Source: Paraspadella gotoi
Lineage: Eukaryota > Animalia > Chaetognatha
Assembly (NCBI GenBank): GCA_051294375.1
Contig: CM119271.1
Coordinates: 15,630,770 to 15,694,769 of the forward strand
DNA length: 64,000 nucleotides
Reading direction: 5' to 3'
Shown here in pieces: positions 2,257 through 47,000 of this stretch. The position numbers and the translations under genes were made by a program. Numbering within the stretch: the first letter of the stretch is position 1; every line of letters starts with the position of its first letter. The notes beneath the pieces are model-generated. The model saw nothing but the letters and a program-made list of their open reading frames with translations, did no database searches and was not told where the DNA came from.

Positions 2257-4136
2257 CTAAAGAGGTAGTTTCTTGGTTTTAGGCTTGAGCGTCATGCTGG
2301 GAAAGAAAGCGTTGAGACGACGCGACGGCGACGAGGGATTCGAGAAGTCGCCTCCGCCTCCGTCTCCATCGCCTCCTCCGGTGTACTTCAGGAACAACCG
2401 ATCTAACTCGTCGTCGTCCAGCGCCGGAAACGCCGTCAATCCCGGCGCCGTCGCTTTCGGCGTCGTCGGCGTCGATTTGGACGAAGAGCAAGAGGACGAC
2501 GACGACGGAGCGTTGCGGCATCGACGAGAGAATCGAGGCGAAGGCGCCGCCGACGACGCCGACGAAGACGGAGACGAAATGGCGACGCTTTCGTAGAGAC
2601 TAGGCGGTTTAGTTCCGCGGGAGAGCGTGCCAAACGGGCTGGCTCCAGCGGAGAGGTCAAAGGACCCGTTGGGGTCGGGGCTGGATGACCCGTCGGGGGC
2701 GCGAAAAGGAGAAGAGTCGCAAGCCCGACCCCAAGAGGCTTGATCGAGGAGGTGTTGTTGAAAGGCGGCCCACCAGACGCGATGGGATTCTGGAGAAGGG
2801 GCGGCGAAGATGGATTCGATGGCAGAAGCTGGAAGATAGGAAGCACCGCTCAAGGGGTCCACGACACGCTCGTCTTCCTCGGCGCCGTCGGCTTCGCGCC
2901 GCACAACGATCGCCTGCTCGTGCGGCGCCCGTTGCGATGCCGACGCCAGCTCGACTCGCCCGCGACAATTGACGGGGACCAAGATGTCGGGCGGTCGGCC
3001 GCTCTCCGCCGCCGATCGAGTCATCCAGCAGGAAAGGTGACGGTCGACGAGGCGGCACCAGAAGGGCGTCCACGTGGTCGTCGTCGTCTCTTCTCCGCGC
3101 AGCAACAAATCTCCCTCCCCGGCCGGTTTGACCTGATAGTAGTAGTTATTGAATGTTATTGTTATTGCTAATTAAATGAGGATTAATTCACTTAACAAAG
3201 GTCAACCTGAACGAGATGTACTTAAAACAAGGTTCAATCAAGTCTAAAAAAATTGTACTTAAGGTATTCCAATTTTAATCTACAATCAACTTACTAATTA
3301 ATTATCATTAAATTAAAATCAAAACTTTACCTTCAACGAGGGTCGGACCGTCAACCGACAGGCCACGTGACCAAAGAGTGGAAGGGAGTCGCGCGACGCC
3401 GCCGAATCGAGGACGTCGAGACGATGGGCGCGGACGTCGTCGTCGGCGTCGTCCAGACGAAGAGTCGTTCGAGCGATGAGAGAGAAAGATGGGGAAGAGG
3501 AAGAGGAGGAGGACGACGACGACAACCCGTCCTCTTCCTCATCTCGCATTCGAGACGCCAGACGTCGACCGACCGACCGACCAACGGAGGAAGTCACGTG
3601 GGTGAGTTTGCGACGAATGAGCGACGGAGTCATCGTCACCGAAACCTTGGGTAAGTTAGTTTTATTGACGAACGTAGTTTTGAGGTACTTCAGTGAAGAG
3701 AGCATTCGTATTTAGTAATATGAAGAAATAATACTGAATAATGGTTAGGAACTGTTAAACTTTTCTGACTCATCATTTCTCTCTTTTATAATAATTCGGA
3801 TGTTCATGAAATACAACGCAAAGATCGGGAGTAAAATGAGTAAAATCCATATTCTATGGCAACAGCCGGGTTGCCTGTGATGCCCGTTGGGATGGGGCTC
3901 TCACTGTAGGCTTTGGAGCTTCCGACCCTCAGTGACGCCTCCAGTCACTGGCGCGGTTACCCTAGGACGGTCTCGCTTTGCCAACGGAGAGGGAAGTCGT
4001 TAGGACTGTGGATGGAACACTACGCCTGGGATGGTGTGTTCCCCCTATGAGCCAATGGTATTGGCTGAACAATCGTGGACGTGAGGTGGTGTGAATATAC
4101 CACCACAATTCCATTAATTTTCTCCAACCTCCCTTT

Positions 4137-4219
<83 letters not shown>

Positions 4220-5193
4220 CTCTCTCACCTCGTCCAAATTCTGGGCGTAAATCTCAACGAGGACTTCGAAATCGGGCGAGACTCTCTTGAAGACGAATGG
4301 TTCGTCGAAGACGACGTCGGTGGAGGCGCCGTCGACGCAGGGCGCCAACGGAGAGTCGCGGACTTGAGCGCCGACGCGCGCCAAGCAAAAGACGGCGAAG
4401 CGGCGCGTCAAGCCGCGCCGCTTGAAATGCTCACGTTCGCCCCACATGAGGGGAACCCGGACGTCGGAGAGAGACGCCACCGCGCGGCAGGGGACGAGGG
4501 AATGGAGGGAGTCTGAGGAAGAAGAGGAGGGGGAGGAAGGGGCGTCGGTGCTGCCGAACAACGCCCGAAGAGTCGCGCCGGATTCGCGGCGTTGAAGTTC
4601 CTATCATAATTCAATTATTACATTAATAAGTTGAATACTGAATATTCATTATTAAACGATGAATGTAGATATTAGAGAATAAATATTGTACAGAGATATT
4701 ATAGCAGGGAGGTATATATCTACATGAGAAATTGTTACCCTGATTATTCATAACATGAACATCGGTTTAAAAAAGTTCAGAGGAGAATTAACTCAGTGAG
4801 ATTATTAAATAATATTAGATATAATATATATAATATTAGTTAATATCGTCCCTCCGCCAAAACCTTCTTCAACGCGTTCATCCTAAACTCCGACACTAAG
4901 AGACTCTTGGCGCCCTCCATCCGCTGCGTCGGCAGCTGGGCCACGTGCAGCAGCTTGGAGGTCCCATCTTGCATCCGAATCTCCCTGTGGATGCTGCTGC
5001 GAAGGCGCGTTGCGGCGTCGTCGTCGTCCGCGTCGTCTTCCACGAACTCATTGTCTCCGCAGCCGCCGCCGCTGACTTCGAGCGGAAGGAAGGAGCGGAG
5101 CAGCGGGGAACCGGCGGAGCGGGAGCGTTGGTGCAGTCGACGGGGGAGCGATTGGAAAGATTGGGGGAGCGGGAGACGGCAGGACTGCTCCAT
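2257..5193 (-). CDS. RTKN: Rhotekin (HR1 + anillin-homology + PH domain), 4 exons
   Basis: HR1-like IHREIRMQDGTSKLL...EGAKSLLVS spliced to ELQRRE; anillin-homology PCRAVASLSDVRVPLMW...FAVFCL and IRRKLTHVTSSVGRSVGRRL; PH-like WTPFWCRLVDRHLSCW. In-phase GT-AG junctions; TAG stop at 2257. Confidence 0.85.
3870..4060 (-). mobile_element. SINE-like repeat, family B copy 1 (RTKN intron)
   Basis: Shares CCATTGGCT head, CAGTGAC..GTCACTG hairpin, CCAAAGCC and GGGCATCACA motifs in the same order with 30550-30745; A-box-like TGGCTCATAGG. Confidence 0.5.
4145..4225. repeat. (CT/GA)n microsatellite starting at a 5' splice donor
   Basis: Visible dinucleotide run directly after GAG|GTGAGA on the minus strand. 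Confidence 0.95.
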
Positions 5194-5765
5194 CGCTGGA
5201 GCCGGAGGCCAAGGTGGGTCGGAGTGTTGGAGTAAAAGTCGCCAAGACGAACATCGAATCTTTACTATGAATTTAAGGTTCAATGATTCTTATTGTTAAT
5301 TACTTTGTAGTAATAATTTGAATAGTTTTGATTATAAAATAAAGTGCAGTAAGCTGAATCGGTGAATGGATGGCAAGAATGTTTTGTTTTTTTTTTTATC
5401 GAGACGCGATGAAGAAAATGGTAAATTGCTAATGGCGGAGTGGGAGATCATTGTTTCTCTTTTTTCGCTTGAAAAGTTTCACTGTTTCCGTCTTGAATTA
5501 AAAATGAAAGAGCAGTCGATACAAGAAATCAAACAAAAGTCGCCCACGAATCCCAAATTGTATTTTGTTATAATAGTTTAAGAGCAACGAGGGGAATAAA
5601 ATTCGTGATTTAGGCCCTAAATTAGGGAATTAGGGAAATACTAATTCAATAATAAATAATACGAGTGACGCGACAACCTCGACAACAACGATCATAATCG
5701 AAATCACTAAATGAAATGAATATGGATATTTCTCAGAAATGCTTTCCTCCGTCGTCCTTCCGTTT

Positions 5766-8700
5766 TCACTCGGCCTCCGCCTTCACTTCCGCTTCGATCT
5801 TGACTTCCGCCATCGACGTCATCGACTCCAAAAAGGCGAGAAACTCTGGGGTGGAGGCGACGTACTTGAAGAGCGAAGAGAGGTGCTCCGCCTCCTCGAG
5901 GGGAAACCAGGCGAAGGCTTCGTGGATTTCCTTTTGTCTCACGAGTTGGAGGAAGTGGGCGGGAGGGTTGGACGCGCGCATTCGGGGCCGGCGCTTCCAG
6001 AGCGGGCGGGGTTTGCGGGAAATGTCGAAGAGGTCCTGAAATGTCATCAACGTTCATTAAATAAATGATTTTTGTACGTTTCTCCTACTATTTCTTCAAA
6101 CCTGAATGGGCTTTCCCGCGGCGCGGGCGACGTCGGGTTCGATCTGACGAAAGAAATAAAGAGTCGCGTCGCCTTTGTGCGGATTGAGGTTGTCGCCGTC
6201 CGTGCGAAGGACCGTCACCTGAAAAAAAAGACCAAAACGGATTGGACGAGTCACGGGAAGGATAAAGGCAGAGGACAACAACGCCGTCGCCTTCACCGTG
6301 CTCGATGCCTCCACGTCCTTGAGGCGAAGAGTGATGTCACACTCCTCCTTGAGTTCGCGACGAGCGCATTCCGCCGCCGATTCCAGGTGGATGCCCGTCG
6401 ACAACACCTTTTCAATTGTGATAAAATAAAATTGTTATATTTAAATAACTTAATCGCCCTGGGCTCTCAATATACAATAATAATCTAAATCGAGGCTTAT
6501 TAAAATTCTATGATTTGATCGCCTCATCAATTTTTATTTCTAAAGAATTCGACTACGCACGAAGTTTAGTCTTACAGTATTTTTTAAAATTATCCAATTA
6601 TTATTATGACAACCGCGATTGAAAACAAAAACTAGTTTAACAGAAATGGGCGATAGGAAAAACTCCAAAGGTCTCTCCAAAAGTGAATATTACGCAATGT
6701 TGATTAAATGATATTTAACTGGTGACGCCAACAACAACGAAACTGGGACACGCCCCTTCTTGACAGAGTACGGTCAGGATCGAGCGACGAACGACGCGGA
6801 AACCAACGCCAATTTGTCCAAACGATTAAGCGAAGAAGCCGATGGAGTGGACAAGGGGAAGCTCTTGGTGAGTTACACCGATATATCGCAATGGAACCAT
6901 TAACTGAAGCTTATAACTGTCATGTCTCTACTGAACAGAACTGCCTCTATTGGTTTCGGGTTCTCTGCTGTCCGCCCTGCGTTTGCTTCTCCCCTTCGGT
7001 CATGACCACGCGGTTGGCCTTCTTTCCTCCAAAGCCGAGTTATAAGATGGTGCCGCTCGCTCATTTGTCTAAAGACAGGCGAGAAGATGACATCAGTACT
7101 TTTACAGGCACCTTTGACATCTCATTCTTTTCATTCTAAATCTAGTGAATTTAAAAAAAAGAAAAGAAAGCGTCAGAGTCGCTTCGATCTCAACTACGCG
7201 TTGCAACTGAAACAATCGTCCAAGTGGCCCTTTGGTCCAGCGGAACTGGATAAGATCGAAGCAGTATTTGTGGAGACCAAACGAAAACAAGTAACGTTTG
7301 AGTAACGTTTGATTCAATCTAATTCAAAGAATCAGGTGGTAAGAGAAAAACTCGTCCCCCTATCAGTCGATCGCCTGTCTCCATTTCAAATGCGTGGATG
7401 AGCCCAAATACACGATCCTCTTCTCGCACACGAACGCCATGGATCTCGGGATGTCGGCTGCGCTGCTGCTGCAGCTAGGAGTTTTTCTCAACTGCAACGT
7501 GTGCAGCTACGACTACTCGGGTTATGGAGAGAGCAGCGGAAGACCGTCGGAGAAGAACATCCGCGCCGACATCGAGGCCGTCTTTCAAAGTTTGATATTT
7601 ATTCATTTATTTATGTTTGGATAAAGATTTAATGATAGTTTTTAAAATTTAATTCGAGATTCATTCTTATTCATCTTAATTTTGGTCTTTTGAATAGTTT
7701 AGTCATTCGTCAGTTGCCTCTTTCAATCAATACCCCCCCTTTAACAGTGCTTAGTGTGAGATACGGCGTACAACCAGGCAAAATCATTTTGTACGGCCAA
7801 AGCGTGGGAACGGCGCCGACTTGCTATCTGGCAGCAAGAAAGAAGGTCGCCGGGGTCATAATCGAATCCGGGTTTATGTCTGGAATGCGGGTAAACGAAT
7901 AAAGGATCGGTCTCTTTCCTCAACATCTCGCAACGACAACCAGTTTTATAGCTTCAATTCCTTATTGATCGACCCAGGTATTCTGTCCCAACAAGCGAGC
8001 GTGCGGTTGCTGCAGACCCGGACGTTGCGGAGATCATTGCTGCGACTCTCTGGTCAACATTGGCGAATGCCCAGATATTGGTAAAAATATAATAGGAAAC
8101 GCGAAAAAGAGACCAAAACAATTTAAGTGTGATCTCTCATTCTCAATCAGAATCGGTCGTCCTCGTCATTCATGGCGAAGCGGACGAAGTAGTTCACGTA
8201 AAACACGGATTCTACATTCAAAGCGAATGTCCCAACACAGGTTCTGTAAATGATCACTAAATTACCAAGGGTCAGACAAAATAGATTCGCCGAAATAGTT
8301 CCGACTACGCGACCTTGATGCGCCTCAATATCTCCTCCTTTTCAGTGGAGCCCCTCTTCCTCGAGATGGGTCGACACAACGACATCCACAGCTTCGTCGC
8401 CTACTGGTATCGACTTAAAAAGTTCGTCGACGTCGAGTTGCCCAAAAGAAACGTGAGGATTTTTGACTTTTTTATTTCGGTTCAGCAAAATTTTTGTCAA
8501 AATTATATTTTATTTTTGGTATAGATTACAGAATCGTTGCCGCCGCCGAAAAATTTTCTTCAAAACAATTCAAATGTAAGAGAATATAATTTTAATATAT
8601 GTGTGAGAGTCTTGATTGAAAGCTTGCAGGGACCTGCTATGTCATTATCTTGTAAGAGTGATGGAGGCCTTAAACCACCAAAGCCTGTCCAAAGTCAGGG

Positions 8701-11700
8701 GCAAGATAGCTTATTTATTAAATGAATGGATAATTTTTATATTGGTTGTACCAATTATATAATATATATTATACACAATTAAGTGTCATACTCATTTGTG
8801 TATCGCAAATATTCAGTTTTGGTTTACGTCACAGGTTTTACAATCGACGGAAATAAAGTCCAGTCCCGCAACGGATATCGAAGCATGAGATTTAATTAAT
8901 GTCATAAAAAAATATATTCTTAAAAGATGAATTATTATTCTTTACTCGAAACTGCGGTTTCGTTTTCGCCAGGGAAATTGGCTTCGCCATAAACACTGTT
9001 TATTAAGCAGTTGCGTCGAACAAAATTATAATGTTAAGCAAAGAGAAGCCAGAAAATTCAGGGGTTCAGACATGCGTATAGTTTTTTACAGCTGGGTAGC
9101 GAGGGCTAGCGAGGCTGTATGAAATTTTATGCCGTCCACCTCACCATCTTTTTTCTGCCAACCTGATGTCGAAATCCTCCGCGCGGAAGTTCCCAGTCTT
9201 TCGTCTCCTCTTCCTCCTCCTTCATTCTATCTCCCCTCCTCCTCATCTCATCGACGGCGCGCTCGGCCAACTCCGCGAATCCGTATTTCGTCTTCAGCGG
9301 AACCGAATCGTCTTCCTCGTCGCTTTTAAGCGAGTTCGTCTCTGGCGCCGTTTTCCCAGTGGGTTCTTCTATTTTATCTTCGTCGGGTTCGTCGTCGTCG
9401 TCGTCGTCGTCGTCTTCTGCGATGTCGGCAACCGCGGATCGCTTCGCTTTCTTCTCAGCTTTGGCGGAGGCGAAGAGGGCCTTCATTTCTGTAAGTAGAC
9501 CGATTCGTTATTATTATCTTATTAATCAATCATTGTATGAATCTGTTATTTTAAAATTATTTTATTCATTTAAAGAAAGAACCGGCGGCGGTTTTTCCTT
9601 CGAGCACTCCCGCCCATCTGTCCATCCACTTCCATTTCGTCAGAGCGAAAAGGGAGGAGAGGGAGGCTTTGTCCATTTTGGCAACGGCTTCTACCTCCTG
9701 CAATACATGATATATGACACGATTAAACTAAAAAACCAAATATATATTCGCAAAGAGAAAAGGAAGAGACCTGATTCGTCCAGCGTTGAATGTTCTTGAC
9801 GACTTTATTCACGTCGATTCTCATCGATCGAGTTGTCGATGAATCACGACGAAACTTGGGACGAGAACCGAAGACGTCCGCTAAAAAAAGTAATAACAAT
9901 TATTAATATTTATGGTTTTTAAGTTTTTAATAAGTTTTTAAAAACTGGAAGTTATCCCAATGAGGCAATACGCAAATTAGAGATTTAATTACTCGATCTC
10001 ATTTCATATTAAACATTTGATAAGTCCTTACATTCCTTACATTACTCCTTAACATTCAAAACCCACCAGCCCTCCTGAAGGCAAAGGCGAGCTCTTGGGC
10101 GACGGGTACAAAGGCGGGGGAGACTTTGTATCGTTTGAGGAGAACCTTGACGAGCATCTCCGACTTGGTGAGGACAACGACGCCAGCGCCCGTGAGGACG
10201 GGGGGAGTCGATGGGTCAACCTCGGAGGAAAAGGTAAGTATAATAGTATAAATTATCCTTTCCCGATTCGACGCAAAGTTATACTCACTTTTAAAATTCG
10301 CTCGCAACTGTTGGTAAGAAGAGTAATGCCGCCGCAAAATGAGACTTGCTTGAAAACAGCGTCGACGTTGACCAGCACCATCCCCGGCTCGAGCGGCGTC
10401 GGGCGACCCTCGGCGATGATCTCCAGTTTCTTTTCCGGATTGAGGCAGAGCAAAGGGCAGGAGAAAGAACCTGAGAAATTTATATCCAAGCATTTTAAAA
10501 GATGGCAAAAACAAAAAGATGGCAAAAACAAATTTAAAAGATGGCAGAAACAAATATTCATCACGAATCGTCACGAATCTTGTAAACAAATCTTCAAAAC
10601 AAATTTGTTCAAAGCCCGGCCTCTTTGAATCATCACCGTTGCCGACGACGACGACGTTCCTCTTCTCCGGCCACACCTCGACGACGATGAGGCGTTCGAG
10701 GATCGACTTGGGCACCGCCCAAGATTCCTGCGGCACCAACATCGTCTTCATCCTTTTACGCGGCTCTTGAAATTCCAGCAGCGAACGCTTTAACCCTTTT
10801 TATAAATTCGATGTAAATTAAACAACATCATATATCATATCAAATTATTCCACCTTGCGACGGAGACGCGACCTCGCGACCCAGAGCGTCGTGCATGACG
10901 ACTTTGACGATCGGCTCGGAGATTGATTTGTGGTCTTGTCCGTTCGTTGCTAAGAAACCGAAAAGAGAGGGAATAGTAAATGGTCTCAAATTTGGTCACT
11001 GGCATCAACTACCGTCTTTCTCAACCCAATTCATTAAGTCTTCCGCAGCTCGAAAAAGAGATTTTGATCTGGAATCGAATCTCTCTCGATACAAAAATAC
11101 TTTTCTCCCCACGAGATGCCAGACTGGATGCAAAGGAGCGCAGTTTCGCGAAACAAAAAATCCTGTCCGCTTCCGTCGTTGCTTAGCGACGTCGACGTCG
11201 CCTCTTTTTTTTCGCGCAAAGACTTCCGGGTGGCAAAAGAGACGGACTCCGATCCGTCCAACTGGCATCAAGGAGGTTTTCGATCCTTTTATGATTTCCG
11301 AGTCTTTGTACCTCAGTCTCGGTTATTATTAACGCAATCCGCGCGGCCTGAGTGCATTCGATGAGTCAACCGAGTTGAGGCGCCAGATTTCGTGACGTCC
11401 GGCGGAAGAGGAAGAGAGACACGATGCCTGAGGAATCGTCAACTGCCGAAACCCGCTCGTCAGATTAACGATTCGATTTTAATAATTTATGTTTAACCCG
11501 CAGGATATAAACAGAAGCGGTTAAAATCATATTCCGATCACCTCGCGCCCGTCCTTTCCTCCACGCCCCTTTCCACCCTGACTTACCCGTGAGGCCGACG
11601 ACGACCCCGAGTGCTCGACAGGCGGCTCTGGATGCGGATTCGACGGCCAAGTCGCCGTCGGGGTATTCCACGTCATCTTCGCTCGAGTATCGCGTCGAGT

Positions 11701-14700
11701 CGTCGAGAAGGATGCGGGCCACGAAGCGGCCGGACGTCTAGATGCATATAAAAGAGGATTTATTATATCTAGATTATCATATAGAGATTTGGTAAAGACT
11801 AATTGAACTCTTTAACACAAGAATGAACAACCCTGAAACCTCCCCCTTCTCACGCCAGCCTGCTCCACGACCGCTTCCGACGCTTTCCGTCCATTCTTTC
11901 GTAAAAATTCGTCGAGTCCGGCGCGCCAAGATGCAGCCGTAACGCGCGTCGCCTTCAAAAACCGCCGGGCCCGAATCGTGCGACGCGCCACGATCTTTTC
12001 CAAGTTGACCACACCGAGACCTTCGAGCGCCAGCTTGGCCGCCTCTTGCTCCGCCGTCTTCTTGCTCAAGTAGCTCGTCGCGGTGCTGCAGGGGAAAGGG
12101 GGGGGGGAAAGCCGTTCATTTTTTTTCTTTATGAAACGAAGGTTTCTTAATCTTATTTGCATATTGTAACTATGAAGAGCGCGTTGCCACTTTTAAAGTA
12201 TTCATTTTAATTCAACTGAATTTCGGGAAAAATTCAAACATGAGGGTTAAAATTAATAAATTAAAATTAATTCTTTTGAGTAATCGTCTCGAAACATCGT
12301 ACAAGATCGTCCACATCGTTTATGAAGAGGAAATAAACTTCAAGCAAATCGAAACGATCAAAGTAAAACGACGCCGACTCAAAAGATAATAAAAAACTTA
12401 AGTTAATTTTCTTTCTTTCGTTTATATTGGAATACTTGTATTTTCTTCATCGCGGATAAACGCGACTCTATTAGATCGGCTTCGCTCCGTGAATATCATA
12501 TTAAAAGTTATATTCACAAAAGAAAAAAGAGAGCGAGACACGGAACGTGACGGAGAGCGAGACAGACCTATAAGATCCGCCCTCGAATCGACAAGAGGCG
12601 AAATATCCTTTTCCTTCCTTCCGCTCGAAGGAGTAGACGGGCGGTTCGAGGTCGCGCCGCGCCAGGTGCTCTTGGAGGATCGACTTGAAAGGCTGCTGCT
12701 GCGTAGCACGCTCCGCCGCGTCGCGTTCCAAGGCTTCGTCCTTTAAAGCCGCCCAAGCCTAAAGGACAAATAGTGAAAAAAAAAAGTTGTGAACATGAAC
12801 TTTTAACATCGCAGATAGAAATGCAATATTTTTAAAACAAATAATAATAAATAAATAATAATTTTACCCCCCCCCCCAACCTCAGAGGCGGCGCCGAGTT
12901 CAGCCTGCTTCTTCGTTCGGTACAACTTTCCCGATTCGCTGTCGAAGCGTCGATCGCCGACGAAGACTTTGGCGCGGAAAGCGGGGCGACCCTCGTGGGA
13001 TATGGTCTCTGTCTTGGAAGAGAGAATAAGATACAAAAAAAGAAGAAAGATAGAGATGGAAAAAAAAAAGAGTGGAACTCACTGTATACGAGGGACCGAA
13101 CATCTGCCGCTTCATGCAATACTCGTTAAGGAGGAGTTTGCATTTGGAGGAAACGATGACGGCAATCACGTCGCCTCCGTTCTAGGATAAAGGGACACAA
13201 AAGAAATGGTTAATGAAATGGTTAATGAAATGGTTAATGAAATGATTAATGAAATGATTCATGAAATGGTTAATGAAATGGTTAACACTCCATTCACTTG
13301 ATCAGCGTCCAAGACCGCAGGAGCGGGAGGAGTAAGGCTCGCCTCGACGGCGGCGACGGCGACGGAGGCGGCGAGGTGTTCCGCCGCCTTCTTCGTCCGT
13401 GAAACTTCTTCGCTGTGGAGAAATAAACGCGTTCCAAATTGCTCTTTTTTATGAGCTCACTCCACATTGCAAAACAAAGCTTTATTTATAATTTCACATC
13501 GCAAAACCAAGCTTTTCTCTCATTTCACTCAAATCCTCACCAGGTAAAAACTTGTCCGTCGACTTCGACTGTAGAGACGAAGCCTTTGGAAGAAACTGAT
13601 TCCACGGTTTTAAAGACGGCGGGAGAAAGTTTGTTTTTCGTTAACAGATGATGAAGCCTGAAAGCGGATATTTTTTATATCAGTTGTCAAAGTTGAAGTC
13701 AGAAAGCAAAAAATGAGTGTTAGGTACATGACATAAAAAGAAAAAGTTAAAAAGTAAATTTTTTTTATATCATTTATTGGATGATGAATTGTGAAAGGTT
13801 TAATATCATAAAGTCTACTAGTGAAAATGTTTGATATAAATTCTAAGAATGTAATATTGTCACCTTTAGAAAATAAGCAGCTTCAAAGTCTGACTACCTG
13901 GCTTTAGCCGTCAAGTCCGGCGTCTTCCCGGCGGCAGGCGCCGTCTCAGCCGCGTCTTCGCCGCCGCCGCCGCCGACGCCTTCGTCAGAAGAATGCCAGA
14001 GGCCCAAGGATTCGAGGCAAAACTTAGCGGCGCTCAATTCCGCGCCCTTTTTGCTTCGCTCGGGAACCGGGCTGACGTAGGGGGATAGAGAGAATAGAAA
14101 GTCATGGGGAGAGAGAGAAAATGAGAGAGAGAGAGAGAGACTCACTTCCTGTATTCAATGTCTTTAAAAGTGACAACACAAGTCCAACTGGGTTCGAAGA
14201 CGGGGTTTCGCGTCGTTTGGTAACGGGGCATCGCCACGCCAATTCGTTGCGCGTATTCCTGAGAAAAGCGCGGAGGAATAAAAGTGTTAAGTCTAAGTAT
14301 CACTCGCCTTCTTTTTCTTCTCACTTCACAACCTGTAACTGTTTTTCCAAGAAATCGAAGGACGGAACCCTAAGTCTTTCTTGCCTTGGTTAGGAGGCGG
14401 AGCCTGAGTCAAGAAGAAAAGGAAAAAAAAAAAAAAAGAATTAAACAGCGATTAGTAAGAAATATCTTACGTTAATACGAAAATGTTAGTCTCGTACTTG
14501 GAAATGTATATGCGGTCGATCGACCATCGGCGCTTCGTAGCCATAATAATAATTTTTATCCTGCGGAAAATGAAAAAAAGGTTTTTGTTAGGGGGCGAGT
14601 TTCTTCCCGACAATTTAAGGATATATTTTCCTAATGACGTTTTCAGACTCCATGACCTCCTTACCTCCTTACCTCTGGTGAACCGTAAAAGTTGGGCGCC

Positions 14701-14824
14701 ATTCCGCCTGCAATAAAGCAAAAGCACCTAAAAATCTTTACAAAATATCTTTTGCTTCATGGCTTTTTTTTTCGCAAGGATTTCTTGTCGTACCTGGATA
14801 CGATTCGTAGCCGCTTGAATCCAT
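5766..14824 (-). CDS. Multi-dsRBD (about 5) + linker domain + Nudix hydrolase (viral decapping-enzyme-like) fusion protein, 22 exons, ~1,014 aa
   Basis: Exons: 14824-14794, 14707-14673, 14403-14333, 14258-14146, 14071-13898, 13657-13541, 13412-13298, 13181-13083, 13012-12881, 12758-12568, 12085-11854, 11737-11587, 10949-10854, 10795-10637, 10470-10346, 10220-10067, 9880-9771, 9697-9583, 9488-9163, 6407-6297, 6218-6102, 6035-5766. All junctions are GT-AG and in phase except a 1-nt shortfall in exon 3. dsRBD motifs: [61 protein letters not shown] and a degenerate fifth. Nudix: WELPRGG|...[17 protein letters not shown]. Confidence 0.75.
6646..8888 (+). CDS. ABHD17: ABHD17-like protein depalmitoylase (alpha/beta hydrolase), nested antisense in an intron of the dsRBD-Nudix gene
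   Basis: LCCPPC...[52 protein letters not shown] (Ser), [12 protein letters not shown] (Asp), GRHNDI (His). Multiple small introns; the first and last exons are less certain. Confidence 0.85.
8605..8756 (+). repeat. Dispersed repeat, family A copy (last ABHD17 intron)
   Basis: About 150 nt nearly identical to 63257-63409 (GAGAGTCTTGATT..AAGCTTGCAGGGACC..GGAGGCCTTAAACCACCAAAGCCTGTCCAAAGTCAGGGGCAAGATAGC..GTACCAATT). Confidence 0.9.
10497..10555. repeat. Short tandem repeat AAAAGATGGCAAAAACAAA x3 (intronic)
   Basis: Three visible imperfect copies. Confidence 0.8.
13204..13286. repeat. 12-bp tandem repeat (GAAATGGTTAAT) about x7, intronic
   Basis: Visible periodic array filling most of a 116-nt intron. 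Confidence 0.9.
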
Positions 14825-18890: not shown

Positions 18891-21282
18891 TCATAAATCC
18901 ACGAGCGTGTTGGGCAGCGGCTTGTTGAGAGTCTCCGGCATGAGCAGCACGAGGACGCCGGCCACCAAGGATGAGACGCCGAAGACTGTGTTGACGACGC
19001 CGGACCCGTAGGCCTTGGAGAGAGTGAAGGCGCTGGGCGCCAGGATAGCCGCCACGTTGCCGAAGGCGTTGACGAGGCCGACGGCGGACGAGCGGACGAC
19101 CGTGGGGAAAACCTGCGGACGAAGGAAATCATCATTATTATTATATAAATGTAATAAGTAAATTTAATATTTCTAAACAATATGACGAAGCCTCATCACC
19201 TCCTGCGTGAAGAGGAAGAGGACTGTGAAGGATCCAGAGATGGCGAACTTCCCCGTCATGAAGAGAGCGACGGCGCCGGCCTGTGGTGCCGCCTCGGGGA
19301 TGAAGGCGAGGGCGCCGAGAGCGACGCCGCCGAGGACGTGAAGGCAGAGAAGGAGGATGCGGCGCCCGACGAAGGGGACGGCGACGAGAACGAGCACCGT
19401 AGCCGGCACCTCCACCAGGCCCGCGAGGAAGAAATTAAAGTAGAGATCGCCTGGCGATGGGAATGGAATTGAATTTTAGGGATTCGAACAAAATTCTGAA
19501 GACTAATAAATTGGTACAACCATTATAAAAATTCAAGTATTCCTATATTTAAACAAGCTATCATCTTGCCTCCTGTTTTTGAGGTGGTTTAAGGCTTCTT
19601 AGCATATAACCTGTAAGATCCTATCAACTCCCACAGTAACAGGCTTCCTACTAAGTGGTATAAATATGTGGGAATTCTGGATGAAAGACAGCTTGTTTAA
19701 TGAACGAACAGATAACTTTATGCTAGCAGTACCCTAATTAGTAATTACATACAAAGTTTAAATAAATCTCTACCGGCCAAAACGGGCGTGGAAAGCGAGA
19801 GGCCGTAATAAGTCAGATTATTGACGAAGGCGACGTAGGCCATAACGAGAACGCGTTTGACGATGCGTCGATCGAGCAGATGACGCCACTGAAGACGGCA
19901 CGACTCCGCCGTCGCCGCCGATTCCGAATTGACGGCGACGCTTCCGGAACCGGCGTCCTTTCCCGTCGAAGCCGTCTTTCCCGGCGCCAAATTGACGCGA
20001 ATGTCGCGAAGCTGTTTGGCGTAGAGCCACGGGACCGACTCTTCGACGAGCCACGCGTAAGCGATGGTGACGACGCTGGGCAAACAGACGGCTAAATAGA
20101 GATGGCGCCAATCCCGCGCCAAATACGCCATCAGCGACAACAGCAACATCCCCAGTGCCCAGAAAAAGTTGTAAGCGATTCCGCCGAGATTTCGCTGACG
20201 CGGTTGCAGCATCTCTACGACGAGAGTAAAGGCGATGAGGGAGGATCCTTGGGCGAAGGCGGCTTGAACGGCGCGAAGGAGACAGAAGGCCCAGTAGGAC
20301 GTCAGGCGGGAGATGACAATTCCGAGAAATGCTGAAACCCAACCGGTGATGAGCATGACCCACTTCCGTCCGTAGGCGTCGGCCAGAGGAGTGAAGATCA
20401 AGTTTCCAAAGGGCAGTCCGCTCATGAAGACTGTGCTGGAGACTTCGGCGAGTCGGTCGTCCGCGCAGACGAGATCCCATTCCGAGACGACGGAGCGGAG
20501 GCCGCGAGTGCCCGTCGCTGAACCTTCCTCGTCGTAGTCGTGGCCGAAGGGACACTTGGAGAAGGTCTGCTCGCGGAGGATGCTGGGGCCGATCGAGGCG
20601 TTGGACGCGGGTTCCATTCGAGATCGATTGAGGGAACATTCGCCGACTTCGTAGATCCAGGGGGAGTCGGAGAGAGTGGCGTTAGTTATGGTGGCATTGG
20701 TGGTTGCATTGGTGGTGGCGTTAGGGGGAAGGGCACAGTGGTGTTCCGGTTCAAAGGCGATAAAGACCGGGCAGACCTAGAATCAATTTAATCAGCATTT
20801 ACTTTTCTCCTGCCTCCTTCTCATACCTTTTCTTTCTTTCCTCCATTTTCTTTCCTTCTTTTCTTTCTTTCCTTCCTCCATATTCTTTCCTTCCTCCTTT
20901 CTTTCTACCTTTTCTTTCTTTACTTCCACCATTTCCTTTTCTTCCTCTTTTCTTTCTTTCTACCTTTCCTTTCTTCCTTCTCTTTTCTTTCTCCTATAAT
21001 TTCTTTTTTTTCTCCTTTTTTCTATTTCTCTTTCTTTTTTTCTCTATTTATTTCTTTCTCACCTCCTTTAATTTTTTTTCTTTCTCCTATTCCTTATCTC
21101 TTTCCTTCCTCCTTTCTTTCTCTCACCATGAGCCAACACAAGGGAAATCCGTAGAATCCCAACAAGAGATAAGACTTGATTTGTTTGCTCGAAAGCCAGG
21201 GGCGTTTGAGGCCGACCGCGACTTCGTCGTCGGAATCCACAGTGTCCGTCTCCTCGTCGCGCGTCAATTTCGTCGACGCCAT
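18891..21282 (-). CDS. SLC22-family organic cation/anion transporter (MFS), 4 exons
   Basis: SVVSEWDLVC, LADAYGRK, VEMLQPRQR, RDWRHL, ESVPWL, YYGLSL, EVFPTVVRS and PETLNKPLP motifs. Confidence 0.9.
19545..19670 (-). repeat. Diverged inverted copy of dispersed repeat family A (SLC22 intron)
   Basis: AAGCTATCATCTTGCC, GGTGGTTTAAGGC and ACTCCCACAGTAACAGGCTTCC match the reverse complement of 63195-63370. Confidence 0.6.
20800..21123. repeat. About 320-nt polypyrimidine/polypurine low-complexity intron
   Basis: Almost only C/T on the + strand. Confidence 0.9.
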
Positions 21283-24271: not shown

Positions 24272-27200
24272 TTATTCAATTTCCATGATGAGATCTTGTC
24301 CTTCCAATTTCATGCCTTTTTCGGCGTGGATAGATATCACTTTCCCAGAGACCGGAGCGTTGACAACCATTTCCATTTTCATCGCCGACAAAACGGCGAT
24401 TGGTTTTCCCTTTTCGACGGAGTCACCGACTTTGACCACGACGTCGATGACGTCTCCGGGCATGGGCGCGCCCACGCTTCCGGGTACACCAACCCGCGCT
24501 TTGGGGTGAAAGGTCATTTCCTTGGCCGCTTCATTGTCGAGGATGAACAAAGATCTCAACTGCCCGTTGAGCTCGAAAAAAACTTCGCGCTGTCCGTTCT
24601 CGTTCAAATCGCCCTTGGCCAAAGTGACGATGTGAAGGATCTTTCCCTTTTCGATCTCCACGTCCATTTCCTCTGCGATGTCTGGTCCCGTTAAAAATGT
24701 GGGCGTGTCGAGACAAGTCACCGCGGTCCCGTATTTCTCTCGGAAAGTTAAATATTCTCTGGCGACGGCCGGATACATGGCGGCGCTCATGACGTCCGCT
24801 TCGGTGATTTGCTTCGCGTCGTAACTTTCCTTCAATTCTTTCTCGAGGGCGTCGAAATCGAAGGGCGCCATCGACTTGCCGGGTCGACCGCTCACCCGCG
24901 GCTTATCCTTCAGAACTTTGCTTCTCAAAGGCTCAGGGAATCCGCCGACGGGTTCGCCCAAATAGCCTTGAAGAAATTCCACGACTGAAGAAGGAAACGA
25001 AAGCTCTTCCGCTCTGGCGAGAACGTCCTTCGAGCTCAGTTTATTCTGGACCATAAATTGGGCGAAATCGCCCACGACTTTTGAAGATGGAGTCACTTTG
25101 ACTAAATCTCCCAAGAGAAGATTCGCTTCGATGTAAGACTTTTTCACTTCCTCAAACTGCTCGCCTAATCCCAAGGAATAAGCTTGGAACTGCATGTTGG
25201 TATATTGTCCGCCGGGAATCTCGTGCTTGTAAACGTCGGCGTTGCCCGACTTCATGGTGACGCAGCATTCGAAGGGACCGTATAATTGGCGCGCTTGTTC
25301 CCAGTAAGCGGAATAGGCGGACACGTCGTCCAGAGAGATTTGGGTGTCGCGCGGTGTTCTTTGCAACGAAGCCACCAACGCCCCCATCGACGGTTGCGAC
25401 GTCATTCCGCTCATAGAATCCACGGCGACGTCGACAATGTCGGCACCCGCTTCGGCACAGGCCAGCATGGAGGCGACGCCGCTGCCGGAAGTGTCGTGGG
25501 TATGGACGTGGATGGGAACATCGGGATATTCCTTCCGAAGGGCGCCGATGAGCATCTTGGCGGCGGAAGGTTTGAGGAGACCAGCCATGTCCTTCACGCC
25601 GAGAAAGTGCGTTCCCGATTTGACGAGAACGTCCGCCATTTTCATGTAATAATCCAGGGTGTACTTGGTCTTCTTAGGATCGGAGACGTCGCCAGAATAA
25701 GACATGGCCGCTTCGGCGATGCCACCAGCCTTGCAGACGGCCTCGATGCCCAGCTCCATGTTGGGAAGATAATTGAGGGAATCGAAAATACGGAAAACGT
25801 CCATTCCATGATCGACGGACATTTGGCAAAACTTGAAGATGACGTTGTCTGGATAAGAGGTGTAGCCGACGGCGTTGGCTCCGCGAAGAAGCATTTGAAA
25901 AGGAATGTTGGGAACGAGTTCCCTTAATTGAGCGAGACGCTCCCACGGGCATTCGTGGAGAAACCGCATGGCGACGTCGAAAGTGGCGCCGCCCCAATTT
26001 TCCAAGGAGAACAAATCGGACATGTGATGAGAGAGGAAAGGCGCGATCCGTTTTAAATCGTAGGTCCTCACTCGAGTTGCGAGGAGCGACTGATGGGCAT
26101 CGCGGGAAGTCGTGTCGGTAAGAAGGAGACGATCGGTAGCCCGAACGGCACGGGCGAGAGCCTCGGGTCCTTGTTCTTTGTAAATATTTCGAAAGCCCTT
26201 GGGAGGAGCGGGGAGCGTCTCTGCGTTATTCGAGATGTTTTCTTCTTCCGGGTTAATCGGACCCGAGGGTCGCTTGGGCGGCGGCCGACCCGCCACGGCC
26301 GGCACCGCCGGAACGATCTTGGCCGGAGGGACGTTAGTGGCCAGGGGCGTTGATGGACCGTTGACCATGACCTCTCCTAGATAGTAGAGCAATCGCTGAG
26401 CTCTATTCTGCGACGGTTCCATGTGAAACAATTGAGGATTCTCGTCGATGAAGTGAGTATCGACGACGCCGCTGAGAAACTGCGGATGTTGGAGGACGTT
26501 GAGGACGAAAGGAATGTTGGTCTTCACCCCTCGAATACGAAATTCTCGCAAGGCGCGATTCAATTTGGCGCAAGCCTCTTGGTGCGTCCTTCCCTTGGCG
26601 ATCAGCTTGACCAAGAGGGAATCGTAGTAAGGAGAGACGACGGCTCCGGCGAAGGCTGAGGCCGAGTCGATGCGAATCCCCATCCCTTCTCCCGAACGGA
26701 AGACCTCGATCCTCCCCGTGTCCGGTTGAAAGTTTTTGGTGGAATCTTCGGTGGTCATTCTGCATTGGATGGCGCAACCGTTGATTTTGATATCGTTTTG
26801 ACGAAGATTCAATTCCTCCAAGGAGTGACCTTCGGCGACGCGAATCTGTGTCTGCACGAGATCGATTCCCGTCACTTCCTCCGTCACCGTGTGCTCCACC
26901 TGCAATCGGGCGTTGACTTCGATGAAAAAGTAGTCGCCCTTGCTGTCGACGAGAAATTCCACCGTGCCGGCGTTGTGATATTTCACGTGATTAGCGAGCT
27001 TGAGAGAATCTGCCAAGACCTTTTCGCGGACTTCCTTGGGGAAGATCGGCGCCGGGGCGATCTCGATTACTTTCTGATGACGCCGCTGGACGGAACAGTC
27101 TCTCTCGTACAAATGAATGATGTTGCCATGTTTGTCTCCCATAAGTTGAACCTCGATATGACGAGGTCGTTCGATAAATCGTTCGATGAACATTGAACCG

Positions 27201-27967
27201 TCGCCGAATGCCGCCAGCGCTTCGGACGAAGCGCGTTTGAAACTATCCTCCAACTCGTCGGCGGATTTAACAATCCTCATTCCGCGTCCTCCGCCGCCGT
27301 AGGCTGCCTTCAACATTATCGGGAAGCCCGATTCTTTGCAGAAAGCGACGGCTTCGGCCGCCGACTTGATCGGGCCGTCGGAACCGGGAATGACGGGCAC
27401 GCCCGCTTCGATGGCCGCCAATCTCGCCTGGACCTTGTCACCCATCCTGGCCATCGTGCCCGAAGTGGGACCGATGAAACTCATTCCTGCATCCTCGACG
27501 GCGCGGCAAAAGTCGGATCGTTCGGAGAGAAATCCGTAACCGGGATGAATGGCGTCGACGTTTTGCGATTTGGCCAACTCGACGATCTCCGGAATGTTGA
27601 GATAAGCTTCGACGGGCTTCAACCCTTTGCCCACGATGTAGGCCTCGTCGGCCTTGACCCTGTGGATCTGGCGTTGGTCTTGTTCGGAATAGATGGCCAC
27701 TGACCTAATGCCCAATTCGGTGCAGGCGCGAAAGACTCGCGTCGCGATTTCTCCCCGATTGGCAACGAGTAATTTTCTGATCGGCTCAATCTTCCCGGAG
27801 GCATTTCGAACGTGGTTAACAGAGACTCTTTGATCGGATTTTAAAAGCCAGCGATGTCCCGTTAAAAACAAGTGTGGTCTCTTACAATTTACTGATTGCC
27901 ACTCGTGAACACTAAGTAATACAGGATTGGACACAGCCCGAGATCGAACTACGTCCAGTAGAGGCAT
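24272..27967 (-). CDS. PC: Pyruvate carboxylase, mitochondrial precursor (single coding exon)
   Basis: About 1,231-aa ORF: [31 protein letters not shown] (biotin carboxylase); [26 protein letters not shown] (carboxyltransferase); SAMKME biotin site. Confidence 0.98.
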
Positions 27968-28531
27968 CTTCAAAGGTTCCGTATTAATAAATAGCTACTC
28001 TAAACTGGCTCTAGAAAATAATAATAATAAAAAAAAATATATAGATCGTCTCCAAAATTTCGTTTAAAAAAAAATTTAAAAGTAGCGATAACAAGTTCTC
28101 TACAAAGATGTAGCGAAACCGAAGAGAAAAAAAAAACGATTAAAATAACTAGACGGATGCAGCAAGGGAAAAAATAATTATAACAATTCCATGATAAAAA
28201 ATTGATTCGTTGAAAGTTCTGGTACAATTAGCAAATTTCAAGGCGTTTTTGTTCAATTTAATCATCCAATGTTCAACCAGACCAAGACATCCTCACGATT
28301 CTTCCAAGCAAAACAACTTCTCTCTCATCTTAATGACAATCTTTTTTTTCGGATAATCGTTCATAATTATTAAATAAACCATTAGAAATTTAAAATTTAA
28401 CACAGTTTTTTTCGGCATCCCAAGTTCGTCGCCAAAGGCGGGTTTCGCAGTTTTGCCAATCGTTCACCTTCATCGTTTAATCACAGAGAGAGAAGAATCG
28501 TAGTGAATAAATCTTCAAATGCTTTCAACTA

Positions 28532-44090: not shown

Positions 44091-47000
44091 CTACTCGGAA
44101 TCGGATTGTGGCGCCAAATCCAAAATCTCTCCTAATCGTTTAAACCACAAGGAGACGTTTTCCTTCAACTTGGGATCCGTGGCGTGAGTCACGAGCTGAT
44201 TGGCCGATTCGAAGAGACACGGGACGAGCGCCTCGAACTCGCCATCGCTCGGTCGAGACACGACGACGCCGAAGACGACGTTGAGGGCGGCGACAAGCGA
44301 ATCGTGGCGAGCGGCGCTGTCATCGATCAAAGATTTCTCCTTTCGGACACGACAGATTTCCTTTTCCATGGCCTCAGGAGATTTCACGAGGGGCGCGCCC
44401 ATCGGGTCGCGCAGCCCGGCCATAACGCCGGACATGGCGAGATGGCGCCGCGATCTGCCGGCGGCGCGAAAGGGTTCGACGCCGCCGTAGACTCGCGGGG
44501 CGCCGGGCATAGCTCGTTGACCCTTTCGTTTCTTGTACTCTGACGTTAGAGACTCCACGTCTTCTTCGGTGGCCGGAGTGTAGACGTTTTCTTTTAGGCT
44601 TAAATCTTTGGTTTCTTCAGGGTCGTCGTTTTCATCTTCGTCGTTTTCGTCGTCATCCTCTTCATCTGCCTCTTCCTCTTTCGATCCTCCCATCAAAGAT
44701 TTCAACTTAAACTCTGACAAGTCATCGAATTTGGCCAAAAGGAAAAACAAAGGTTTCTTAGCGAGAGCATCGGCGATGTATTCCCGACCGAATTTGTCCA
44801 ACTGAAAATCGATGTATCTCTGCGTTTGCTCTTTGACTCCCTTCCTCAACCGACGAAGGAACGACTTGTTAAATCTCGCCTCTCGAAGTAGAGAATGAAA
44901 GTAAAGAAGAAAAGAGACGGAAGAGGCGCTGTAGAGATTGAGAGCGACTCGAGCCCCGACCACGTTTTGCAACAGGATCTTGAGTCCGGGTCGAGCGTCG
45001 AAATCGTGAGCGACGTTCGTAGATTCCTCCAACGCGTCGAGGAGGAGGTTGGAATCGGTCGTCGAGAGGCCTTCGGATCCACGGGGAAATCGTCGTCGAT
45101 CTTCGAAGGCGATCGTCGTGGCGGCGGCGAAGATGGTCTCGTCGGGCGCGATTCCGCAGCCTCGCAACAAGACTCCGCCGATGGTTTGAACGACGAGCTG
45201 ATGGGCTAAGAGGCCGAGCACGACCCGACGGAACTCGACGGCTTCGTCCGGCTGGAAATTCGGGAGACGTTTGAAGCAACCGACGTCGTCTTCATCGTCG
45301 TCGTCGTTTCGATCGTAAAGCAGAAAGACGAATGATCTCATCGTCTCATCTCCAGAGGTCATCAATGGCGCGGCGTCATTTTCTTCGCTTCCCGTCATCT
45401 CGCCAATTCTTTGAGACTCGACCAGAAAAACTCTCCGCGCTAGTTGACGCAGCTGACGCGCCTCAGCCGCAGAGCAGTCTCGGCGGGCGCCGACGCGAAC
45501 GCGACGCGCGTCCCCGTAAAAGTTTTCCGATCCTTCGGAGAAACAAGTCATAAGCCGTTTTAGAGGATAGAGGGAGACGTGGACAGCGCGGCGTAACGCG
45601 CGACACGCTACGCTCCAAACTTCCGGCGAAAAATCGGCCGCCGCGTCTCCTTCCACGAAGAGATGCTTGAGACATGAGCAAGCGAGTCGAGAGATGGACT
45701 CGTCGGCGGCGGCGATTCCTTCGACGACGACTTCCAAGAATTGCTTCGTCATGAAGGCCAAATCCTTTTTTATAAAAGACGAAGAGGAAGGTCCCACCTT
45801 TATCATCAAATCAGCGATGGAATTGGTGGCCAAGCCGAAGCATTGCTTCAAGTTCATCAAGTAAGAATCTCCGAGACCAGATTTGTCGGTCGTTTCCTTT
45901 CGCAACCAAAATTGTATCATGGGCAGGAGCAGAGTGTCGATGCAATAAATAGAGAATCTTGGACCGGGACAATCCGCCAGACCGTTGAGGATATCAAACA
46001 GAAGCTGAACGGCACGAGGCTGATAAACCCGAGGGCAGAGAGTCACGGAGGAAGCGACGCCTTCCACCAGCAAATACCAAACGTGCAAAATGCCCGTCCC
46101 TTGGTCGAGATCTCCGATCGTTCGCGAATCTGGTCCATCGTCGGAATAGATGTTGTCGCGTGATTCATCCTCGTCATCCAAGGGTCGAAGATCGAGAGCG
46201 ACGTCTTCATCATCCTTCGAAATCTCTTGGGAGGAATTGGGCCGAAAAATCTCGTCTTCTTCGAGCGGGAGAGAAAATCTTTGAAACAAAAGATTCTCGC
46301 TGACGTGAGGGATCGATGAATCGATGTTCTGCGGAATGTCGCTCAGTTTTATCCAATGCGCAGCCGGAAATGTGGGGCAGTTGAGCATCTTGTACATCGA
46401 GGAAAAAATGTCGGAGGTTTCTTTAAGAAATTGAAAGGCGGGGAGACAGAGGCAGTCGGCTCCGGGAGAAAGGTTGTCGGTTTCATCGTCGGTGTCGTCG
46501 TCGTCGGTCTCGCTGTCAGAGTATGGGTCTTTGTTCGTCGGGGGATAAAGATCTTTGTCAGGAATGGCTCCTCCTCCTCTGAGATACTTGAGCAAACAAA
46601 GAACGCAATCCAGCGCCGCGTTGGCGAAAATGCCGACTTTTCCGGTGCCGAAAAAGGCGCGAAAGACGTCGAGCACCGGCTGAACGCGATCTCCGTTTCT
46701 CTCCGGCGTCTCGAAAAACCGGAAGTGGACATGACGCAAGGCAGCGAAGAGAGGCTTCCATCCGGAGCCGAGTTCCTCGGCATAGCCTTCGACGAGGGCG
46801 CAGAGGACGGTGAGGGTCTGACTCTGGACGGCGGGTTCGCTCTCTAGACAGAGGATGGTCTCGAAGGGTTTGACGAAGGCTTCGTGGAGATGAAAGTATT
46901 TTCTCTCTTTGACTCGAACGAGCATCGTGGCGACAACTTCGTAGAGAGTCTCCACCGCCTTCGACGACAACGACGCGTCTCGACTCGTCGCTGCCGCCAG

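What the first reader, a model, noticed from the sequence alone, without database searches (positions are those of the whole stretch)
6408..9162. Nudix box split by a 2.75-kb intron that contains a whole antisense ABHD17 gene
Seen: the exon at 6407 has no start codon, and I found no other minus-strand exon just upstream of it. The exon at 9488 ends in WELPRGG with two phase-0 donors (CAG|GTTGGC at 9163/9162, ATG|GTGAGG at 9145/9144) that fit the phase-0 acceptor AAG|GTG at 6408. The same GTTGGC donor appears in BLTP2 near 33169. The intron holds the only plus-strand gene in the window. Inference: overlapping antisense transcription could regulate inclusion of the catalytic exons, or make dsRNA from the locus of a dsRNA-binding protein.
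Basis: partly seen in the sequence, partly recalled or inferred. Interest (0 to 1): 0.7.

Follow-up and report, generated by a model that had tools for sequence, protein, structure and literature searches.

The report
Antisense gene nested in HYL1-like intron
A complete, spliced ABHD17-like enzyme gene lies backwards inside what is very likely one intron of a gene for a double-stranded-RNA-binding (HYL1-like) protein; such nesting is ordinary in animals, but the host protein's enzyme half is predicted to be built like viral mRNA-decapping enzymes.

Summary
The anatomy is real. A 22-exon minus-strand gene (14824-5766, 1033 aa) has a 2755-nt phase-0 intron (9162-6408) in the loop of its Nudix motif. 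Six of six homologues read straight across it and pick the 9163 donor; five of five genomic fragments of close relatives break at the same codon, so the intron is old. A spliced, plus-strand ABHD17-like transcript (6564 to at least 8465) lies inside it. The junction itself was not displayed, but contig length and depth fit it to within a base. Antisense nesting is common (9.5% of fly genes are in nested pairs, 71% antisense), the mature mRNAs do not overlap, and nothing here supports regulation or dsRNA feedback. The host is a relative of Nematostella HYL1-like a, with five dsRNA-binding domains and an intact Nudix box. A predicted model of a homologue's C-terminal half best matches the asfarvirus decapping enzyme g5Rp, including its helical insertion; activity is untested and the host animal's lineage is unresolved. 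Verdict: ordinary nesting, moderately interesting host protein.

The parts
5766..14824 (-). Host gene, 22 coding exons, 1033 aa: five dsRNA-binding domains, a beta-rich (possibly OB-fold) domain, Nudix fold with helical and acidic insertion; HYL1-like
   Evidence: Model built by coordinates, one N at a 1-base gap; 40-51% identical to P0002-P0006; phmmer to Nematostella P0016 E 4.5e-45; spliced RNA contigs 9488-10949 and 11587 on
11854..14403 (-). Exons for the five dsRNA-binding domains (about aa 40-490; the fifth ends in exon 11737-11587)
   Evidence: Pfam dsrm partial hits on single exons; 4 dsrm stretches in 4 of 5 long homologues, 2 in the shorter P0003; five alpha-beta-beta-beta-alpha units in the P0004 model; tblastn
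10289..10795 (-). Exons for the beta-rich domain before the Nudix fold (aa ~545-640); OB-fold is a lead only
   Evidence: Residues 1-97 of the homologue model, pLDDT 80-95; Foldseek hits to RPA70 N-OB E 0.03, TMt 0.41-0.44 (range in model not given, assignment inferred)
10067..10220 (-). Exon with the first two Nudix strands, followed by the helical insertion (exons 9880-9771, 9697-9583)
   Evidence: Nudix structures align from model residue ~98; window aa 643
9163..9488 (-). Exon 19: acidic linker, helix, and first half of the Nudix motif loop ([11 protein letters not shown]); donor at 9163/9162
6408..9162 (-). 2755-nt phase-0 GT-AG intron holding the nested gene; alternative donor at 9144 unsupported by homologues
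6297..6407 (-). Exon 20: rest of the Nudix box, E-x7-RELKEE intact
   Evidence: Pfam NUDIX E 0.006 on the single ORF
6102..6218 (-). Exon 21, after a 78-nt in-frame intron (6296-6219)
   Evidence: homologues lack the 26 residues; depth 55.6 observed, 56.3 predicted
5766..6035 (-). Last coding exon and stop
6564..8465 (+). Nested ABHD17-like transcript, at least 9 exons, ATG at 6646, 378-429 aa depending on an unresolved last intron; Cys cluster, GQSVG serine, HGEAD aspartate, GRHND histidine; one GC-AG intron (7079-7145)
   Evidence: RNA contig 2, 8 joints, depth 450; translation
8600..8766 (+). Dispersed high-abundance repeat with a twister-ribozyme-like core (8657-8699), downstream of the nested gene and on its strand
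   Evidence: Rfam Twister-P5 25.8 bits, E 0.023, below gathering 37.6; 95% copy at 63252-63419; 6 motif matches, 0 expected; RNA depth about 119,000 at 8701
8999..9004 (-). AATAAA 158 nt into the intron; candidate signal for a truncated isoform, untested
   Evidence: read-through stops 10 codons after the donor

Best explanation
An ABHD17-like gene is transcribed and spliced on the plus strand inside an old intron of a minus-strand HYL1-like dsRBD-Nudix gene; the host very likely splices 9163 to 6407 to rebuild its Nudix motif, and the nesting is likely a tolerated insertion rather than a regulatory switch. Shown: splice signals and frame; a spliced nested transcript; homologues contiguous across the joint; the same intron position in relatives. 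Inferred: the joint in this species; a separate promoter for the nested gene in the 156 nt beside the host acceptor; arrival as a DNA-level copy (8 introns, so not a recent retrocopy) tolerated because its splice and poly(A) signals face away from the host strand. The host protein most likely binds structured RNA through five dsRBDs, as a Dicer-partner-like factor, and is predicted to hydrolyse an RNA 5' cap or a related pyrophosphate with a Nudix domain that carries a helical insertion as in g5Rp (substrate untested).
For: 6 of 6 homologues read GGF[RK]HQ-xL[SP]x[14 protein letters not shown] without a gap; L001 is such an uninterrupted reading frame. 5 of 5 genomic-looking fragments of the close clade that hold the GG loop stop at HQ followed by Val, as a phase-0 GT donor reads, and P0032 begins at Q-ALSTG. 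RNA contig 1 has 480 letters upstream of 6034; the spliced model predicts 481 if it begins at the GAC repeat at 9414, and 8 of 8 bin depths fit the spliced model within 8 units, while run-on into the intron misfits two bins (81.9 and 279.1 predicted, 55.6 and 220.1 seen). Nested genes: 9.5% of fly genes, 71% antisense, uncorrelated with hosts; 2357 in a ctenophore, 1109 flanked by transposons. Host identity: profile hit P0016 E 2.8e-36, named Nematostella HYL1-like a; top PDB sequence hits plant DRB4, Dus2 dsRBD and HYL1. Fold: model pLDDT 78; only 2 PDB chains at E<=0.001, both g5Rp; VIA aligns 216-220 of 243-247 g5Rp residues against about 128 for other Nudix cores.
Against: The 9163-6407 joint was not among the 15 of 35 joints displayed and no second lay was obtained. 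The 9145 donor scores higher on a local matrix (7.7 against 6.2), so a +6-residue isoform may exist. Synteny of the nested gene was not testable. The model is of a homologue (P0003, 54% identical over 442 columns), not of the window protein. The g5Rp match has rmsd 5.3-5.4 A (12.8 in Foldseek) and 12-18% identity; Ap4A hydrolase (Z 12.5-13.3) and Dcp2 (Z about 12) score higher than g5Rp (Z 10.6-11.2) on the core. The motif has a 7-residue loop insertion, and several relatives have lost the catalytic glutamates. The ABHD17 label rests on motifs, partly recalled; a homologue search with one exon found nothing.
Confidence: 0.78

Rival explanations
1. Regulatory nesting: where the nested gene is strongly transcribed, polymerase collision or antisense pairing blocks the long splice, and the host ends at an intronic poly(A) site as a dsRNA-binding form without the catalytic box.
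For: Read-through gives a stop 10 codons past the donor; AATAAA at 9004; the nested 5' end lies 156 nt from the host acceptor; contigs upstream of the intron have depth 128-139, the downstream one 108 (the tool warns against ranking by depth).
Against: Both genes are spliced in the same run; no such truncated contig among the rows displayed (tables cut; bins near 9004 are swamped by repeats); 7 minus-strand AATAAA lie in this AT-rich intron; fly pairs show no correlation beyond random.
Confidence: 0.12
2. Two separate host genes: the exons from 6407 form their own transcript, from a promoter shared head-to-head with the ABHD17-like gene or by spliced-leader addition, in a region that looks operon-like.
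For: All 14 genes placed by Pfam or homology other than the nested one lie on the minus strand, with short spacers and AG acceptors shortly before the ATG, as in leader-splicing animals (PMC12460157, PMC2481426 passages).
Against: No Met before residue 95; homologues are single chains; contig 1 carries 251 further letters beyond 6407, while published leaders seen here are 35-48 nt; no cover at 6408-6563.
Confidence: 0.05
3. Assembly artefact placing the ABHD17-like gene inside the intron.
For: The window has a 1-base gap against RNA at about 14341 and a dispersed repeat inside the intron; no DNA run or genome was available.
Against: Both intron ends are intact and contiguous with unique sequence; the repeat is only 167 nt; no N in the window.
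Confidence: 0.04

Closest known systems
Nested intronic genes on the opposite strand (Drosophila, human NF1 intron genes, Hormiphora ctenophore)
   Same: Whole intron-containing gene inside one intron, antisense, unrelated function, flanked by a repeat (PMC3814207 sections 4-5; PMC4394429 and PMC8527503 passages).
   Different: Very tight: 156 nt between the host acceptor and the nested 5' end; the host intron falls inside a catalytic motif, which has no consequence after splicing.
Nematostella HYL1-like a (AGW15600.1, P0016) and animal HYL1L proteins
   Same: N-terminal dsRBDs and the whole C-terminal half in the same order, same 7-residue loop insertion, intact E-x7-RELxEE. Moran 2013 already notes that one Nematostella HYL1L has a NUDIX domain (PMC3840309 section 7; figure 3A not seen).
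   Different: Five dsRBDs against three; acidic linker; 29-37% identity in the C-terminal stretches; long branch in the tree. Tripathi 2022 describes Hyl1La as three DSRMs and has no 'nudix' in its main text. Orthology to a rather than b and a Dicer link were not tested.
African swine fever virus mRNA-decapping enzyme g5Rp and related giant-virus Nudix proteins
   Same: Helical domain inserted between the first Nudix strands and the motif (g5Rp 36-124, PMC9131872 passages); best Foldseek hit in PDB (E 8e-6) and BFVD (abalone asfa-like g5R, E 2.5e-7); ESM Atlas top hits are Nucleocytoviricota Nudix clusters at 0.87, a lead only.
   Different: 12-18% identity, rmsd over 5 A; 7-residue loop insertion, extra dsRBDs, beta domain and acidic linker; no sequence-level link found; activity untested.
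ABHD17 depalmitoylases
   Same: Cysteine cluster near the N-terminus and G-x-S-x-G serine (PMC4755737 passages); Asp and His motifs as recalled for the family.
   Different: About 45 extra N-terminal residues, a basic insert and a Cys-rich loop; orthology and activity untested.

Membership tests
Nested intronic gene | Nested transcript lies wholly within one host intron | tested here: met
   Contig 6564-~8465 within 6408-9162; true 3' end not seen, and 31 unplaced letters precede 6564
Nested intronic gene | Host exons on both sides are joined in one mRNA | tested here: met
   Indirect: homologues, contig length and depth; joint not displayed
Nested intronic gene | Independent promoter | not testable with these tools
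   Opposite strand implies it; no raw reads or cap data
HYL1-like (HYL1L) | dsRBDs closest to plant HYL1/DRB | tested here: inconclusive
   Profile of the close clade: DRB4 E 5e-14 first, then Dus2 dsRBD and HYL1 at 1e-8 to 8e-8; no dsRBD tree built
HYL1-like (HYL1L) | Colinear homology to Nematostella HYL1La over dsRBDs and C-terminal half | tested here: met
   phmmer E 4.5e-45, six colinear stretches; profile E 2.8e-36
HYL1-like (HYL1L) | Acts in small-RNA processing | not testable with these tools
   Shown only for Nematostella (PMC9098223 passages)
Nudix hydrolase | E-x7-REUXEE helix with catalytic glutamates | tested here: met
   Intact in the window and 6 of 6 close homologues; Pfam NUDIX in 6 of 6
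Nudix hydrolase | Canonical G-x5-E spacing | tested here: not met
   G-x12-E: a 7-residue insertion, shared with Nematostella, modelled as short strands
Nudix hydrolase | Nudix fold | tested here: met
   Homologue model, Z 12.5-13.3, rmsd 2.3-2.8 A over 126-128 residues
g5R-type viral decapping Nudix | Helical domain inserted after the first strands | tested here: met
   216-220 residues aligned, Z 10.6-11.2, rmsd 5.3-5.4 A; Foldseek E 8e-6
g5R-type viral decapping Nudix | Sequence homology or common clade | tested here: inconclusive
   PDB profile search of the C-half found nothing significant; viral scan gave 3 weak box-only hits
g5R-type viral decapping Nudix | Releases m7GDP from capped RNA | not testable with these tools
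   Needs an assay
ABHD17 | N-terminal cysteine cluster and nucleophile serine | tested here: met
   LCCPPCVC and GQSVG in the spliced frame; features from PMC4755737
ABHD17 | Orthology by database hit or tree | tested here: inconclusive
   Single exons give only generic hydrolase hints; none at E<=1e-5 among 47 candidates
Twister ribozyme type P5 | Rfam gathering score | tested here: not met
   25.8 bits against 37.6; P1 loop missing

The most novel reading that the evidence does not exclude
Animal HYL1-like proteins are dsRNA-guided decapping enzymes: their unstudied C-terminal half is an OB-like domain plus a Nudix hydrolase of the asfarvirus g5R type, shared with giant viruses by descent, and this five-dsRBD clade with an intact active site belongs to an animal with operon-like gene arrays, possibly a bilaterian, where HYL1-like genes are said to be lost.
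Probability: 0.22. Interest if true: 0.78.

Novelty: new member of a known kind. Interest (0 to 1): 0.42.

Why it matters
The nesting adds one more case to a common genome feature and matters mainly for annotation: the gene would otherwise be called as two fragments. The host protein matters more. HYL1-like proteins carry the argument for a shared origin of plant and animal microRNA processing, yet in the papers read only their dsRBDs are discussed. An intact Nudix site with a g5R-like insertion gives a direct test (decapping or 5'-end trimming of structured RNA) in an animal that already has knockdown tools. If the host here is a bilaterian, the published loss of HYL1-like genes in Bilateria would need revision.

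Tried and rejected
No genome is held, so no genome-wide count of nested genes or search for the ABHD17 parent. Run search: no holder on record as RNA; X1 is a guess, but its contigs skip introns and intronic bins have no cover. No second view of the joint was obtained. The 9145 donor as main donor: rejected on homology. Metagenome scan: 1 of 15 loci a true relative (L001), 14 unrelated prokaryote-type Nudix proteins. Viral scan: 3 box-only hits, not examined. Full-length fold from 6 rows: C-half under pLDDT 50, not used. PDB sequence search of the C-half: nothing significant. ABHD17 exon searches: nothing decisive. Lineage: V-ATPase E shows an animal; ctenophore and chaetognath papers fit parts of the genome style but gave no test, and 3 supplementary files of PMC12460157 had 0 hits for HYL1, NUDIX, PF00293, ABHD17, dsrm. 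The 31 loose letters before 6564 are not in the window and do not resemble the leaders printed; likely a chimeric end, unexplained. Tree: 13 of 21 rows kept (over 250 aa of the domain); window plus 6 close rows form a starred clade that joins Nematostella on long branches, so no direction or donor is claimed. Four look-ups of earlier findings returned nothing. No complex prediction was sent.
Full report
Observation. Without splicing, the upstream exon stops 10 codons past the first donor; the downstream exons have no Met before residue 95. The intron is 2755 nt, against 58-637 nt for the gene's other 20 introns. The first 'exon' below the intron is itself split by a 78-nt in-frame intron.

RNA. 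One run (X1, contigs only, RNA by guess) was laid on 5200-14800. It shows a plus-strand contig with 8 joints from 6564 to about 8465, and minus-strand joints of the host from 9488 upward. Only 15 of 35 joints were displayed and the long one was not among them; no second view was obtained. Indirect evidence is close: contig 1 has 480 letters upstream of 6034, the spliced model predicts 481 if it begins at the GAC repeat at 9414, and 8 of 8 bin depths fit the spliced model, whereas run-on into the intron predicts 81.9 and 279.1 where 55.6 and 220.1 are seen. These sums do not show where the 251 letters beyond 6407 come from; that they are exon 19 is inferred.

Homologues. A search with the Nudix exon found 6 proteins among 264 candidates, 5 of them 798-1136 aa with dsRBDs; a second search found no further full-length ones among 7990. 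All 6 run straight across the joint and fit the 9163 donor. A profile search of 1.84 billion representatives gave 65 hits. Seven short fragments hold the GG loop and stop: 5 of the close clade at HQ followed by Val, the reading of a phase-0 donor, and 2 more distant ones about four codons later; one further fragment starts just after HQ. The intron position is therefore older than this species. Their contigs are 0.5-2.2 kb, so what the intron holds there is unknown.

The nested gene. It encodes 378-429 aa with a cysteine cluster, GQSVG, and Asp and His motifs, which fits ABHD17 depalmitoylases (PMC4755737, passages; remaining motifs recalled). Database confirmation failed on single exons. With 8 introns it is not a recent retrocopy. 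A 167-nt dispersed repeat with a twister-like core follows it on its own strand.

Is nesting unusual? No. In Drosophila 9.5% of genes are in nested structures, 71% of nested genes are antisense, and pairs are no more co-expressed than random pairs (PMC3814207, abstract, introduction and sections 4-5). Human has 373 (PMC4394429, passages), a ctenophore 2357 (PMC8527503, passages). Here the mature mRNAs share no exon, so only nascent host RNA could pair with the nested mRNA. The regulatory reading stays possible (AATAAA at 9004, one of 7 in the intron) but has no positive evidence.

The host protein. Of 26 proteins looked up as queries, 2 carried informative names: Nematostella HYL1-like a and an uncharacterised Sycon protein. 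The window model matches the first over dsRBDs and C-half (E 4.5e-45). Moran 2013 states that one Nematostella HYL1L has a NUDIX domain (PMC3840309, passages and section 7, figure not seen), so the architecture is known in outline; Tripathi 2022 describes Hyl1La as three DSRMs and reports loss in Bilateria (PMC9098223, passages). A model of the C-half of homologue P0003 from 22 rows is confident (pLDDT 78, pTM 0.72). Foldseek's only PDB matches at E<=0.001 are the two g5Rp entries and the top viral match is an asfa-like g5R. VIA-align puts Ap4A hydrolase and Dcp2 first on the core, but aligns about 90 more residues to g5Rp, i.e. the helical insertion, at rmsd 5.3-5.4 A; the g5Rp paper found no homologue for that helical domain (PMC9131872, passages). 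Descent or convergence is open, as is the substrate. I found no paper linking HYL1L to g5R or decapping in listings of searches (open-licence library only; of 38 and 34 papers were listed); figures and supplements of the two Nematostella papers were not seen and may name the domain.

Setting. 26 of 59 selected minus-strand ORFs and 0 of 62 plus-strand ones beyond 15 kb hit Pfam; spacers are short and several ATGs follow an AG acceptor closely. This resembles operons with leader splicing (PMC12460157, passages and 3 supplementary files; PMC2481426, passages and section 12) but was not tested, and the animal's lineage is unresolved.

Verdict. Observation confirmed; interpretation partly supported; nesting ordinary; host a new member of the HYL1-like Nudix proteins with a testable enzyme prediction. 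Interest 0.42.

Noticed in passing
window 8600-8766 (+), 63252-63419 (+), 50338-50487 (-), 19509-19598 (-): Repeat family with a twister-P5-like core whose P1 is a loopless palindrome; 35-45-nt tandem units at 50.3-50.5 kb; RNA depth about 119,000. Possibly a ribozyme-bearing retroelement that folds as a dimer; in the intron it faces away from the host strand and could cut the nested gene's 3' end.
   Followed up: partly
window 1-64000: All 14 genes placed by Pfam or homology other than the nested one are on the minus strand, with spacers of about 300-600 nt where measured and AG acceptors shortly before the ATG: operon-like.
   Followed up: partly
window 2260-6034: RNA contig 1 (3246 nt) runs from the host's last exon through 5200 and 1931 letters beyond, apparently into the anillin-domain gene downstream: read-through, overlap or a dicistronic precursor.
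   Followed up: no
window ~14341: The window is one base short of the RNA contig in exon 3 of the host, which shifts the frame; likely an assembly error or allele.
   Followed up: yes
window 7079-7145: GC-AG intron in the nested gene.
   Followed up: yes
window 24275-27994: Pyruvate carboxylase in one 1240-codon frame without introns, and a 1743-codon frame at 44094-49322, in a genome of small exons.
   Followed up: no
window 6564: 31 letters at the 5' end of the nested gene's contig lie nowhere in the window.
   Followed up: partly
P0024, P0025, P0027, P0028, P0044, P0061, P0064: A second clade of HYL1-like relatives has lost the Nudix glutamates, so active and dead forms coexist in the family.
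   Followed up: partly
P0016: The record labelled HYL1-like a passes Pfam's NUDIX cut-off (22.2 against 21.1 bits), though the functional paper lists only three DSRMs for Hyl1La and gives extra domains to Hyl1Lb.
   Followed up: partly
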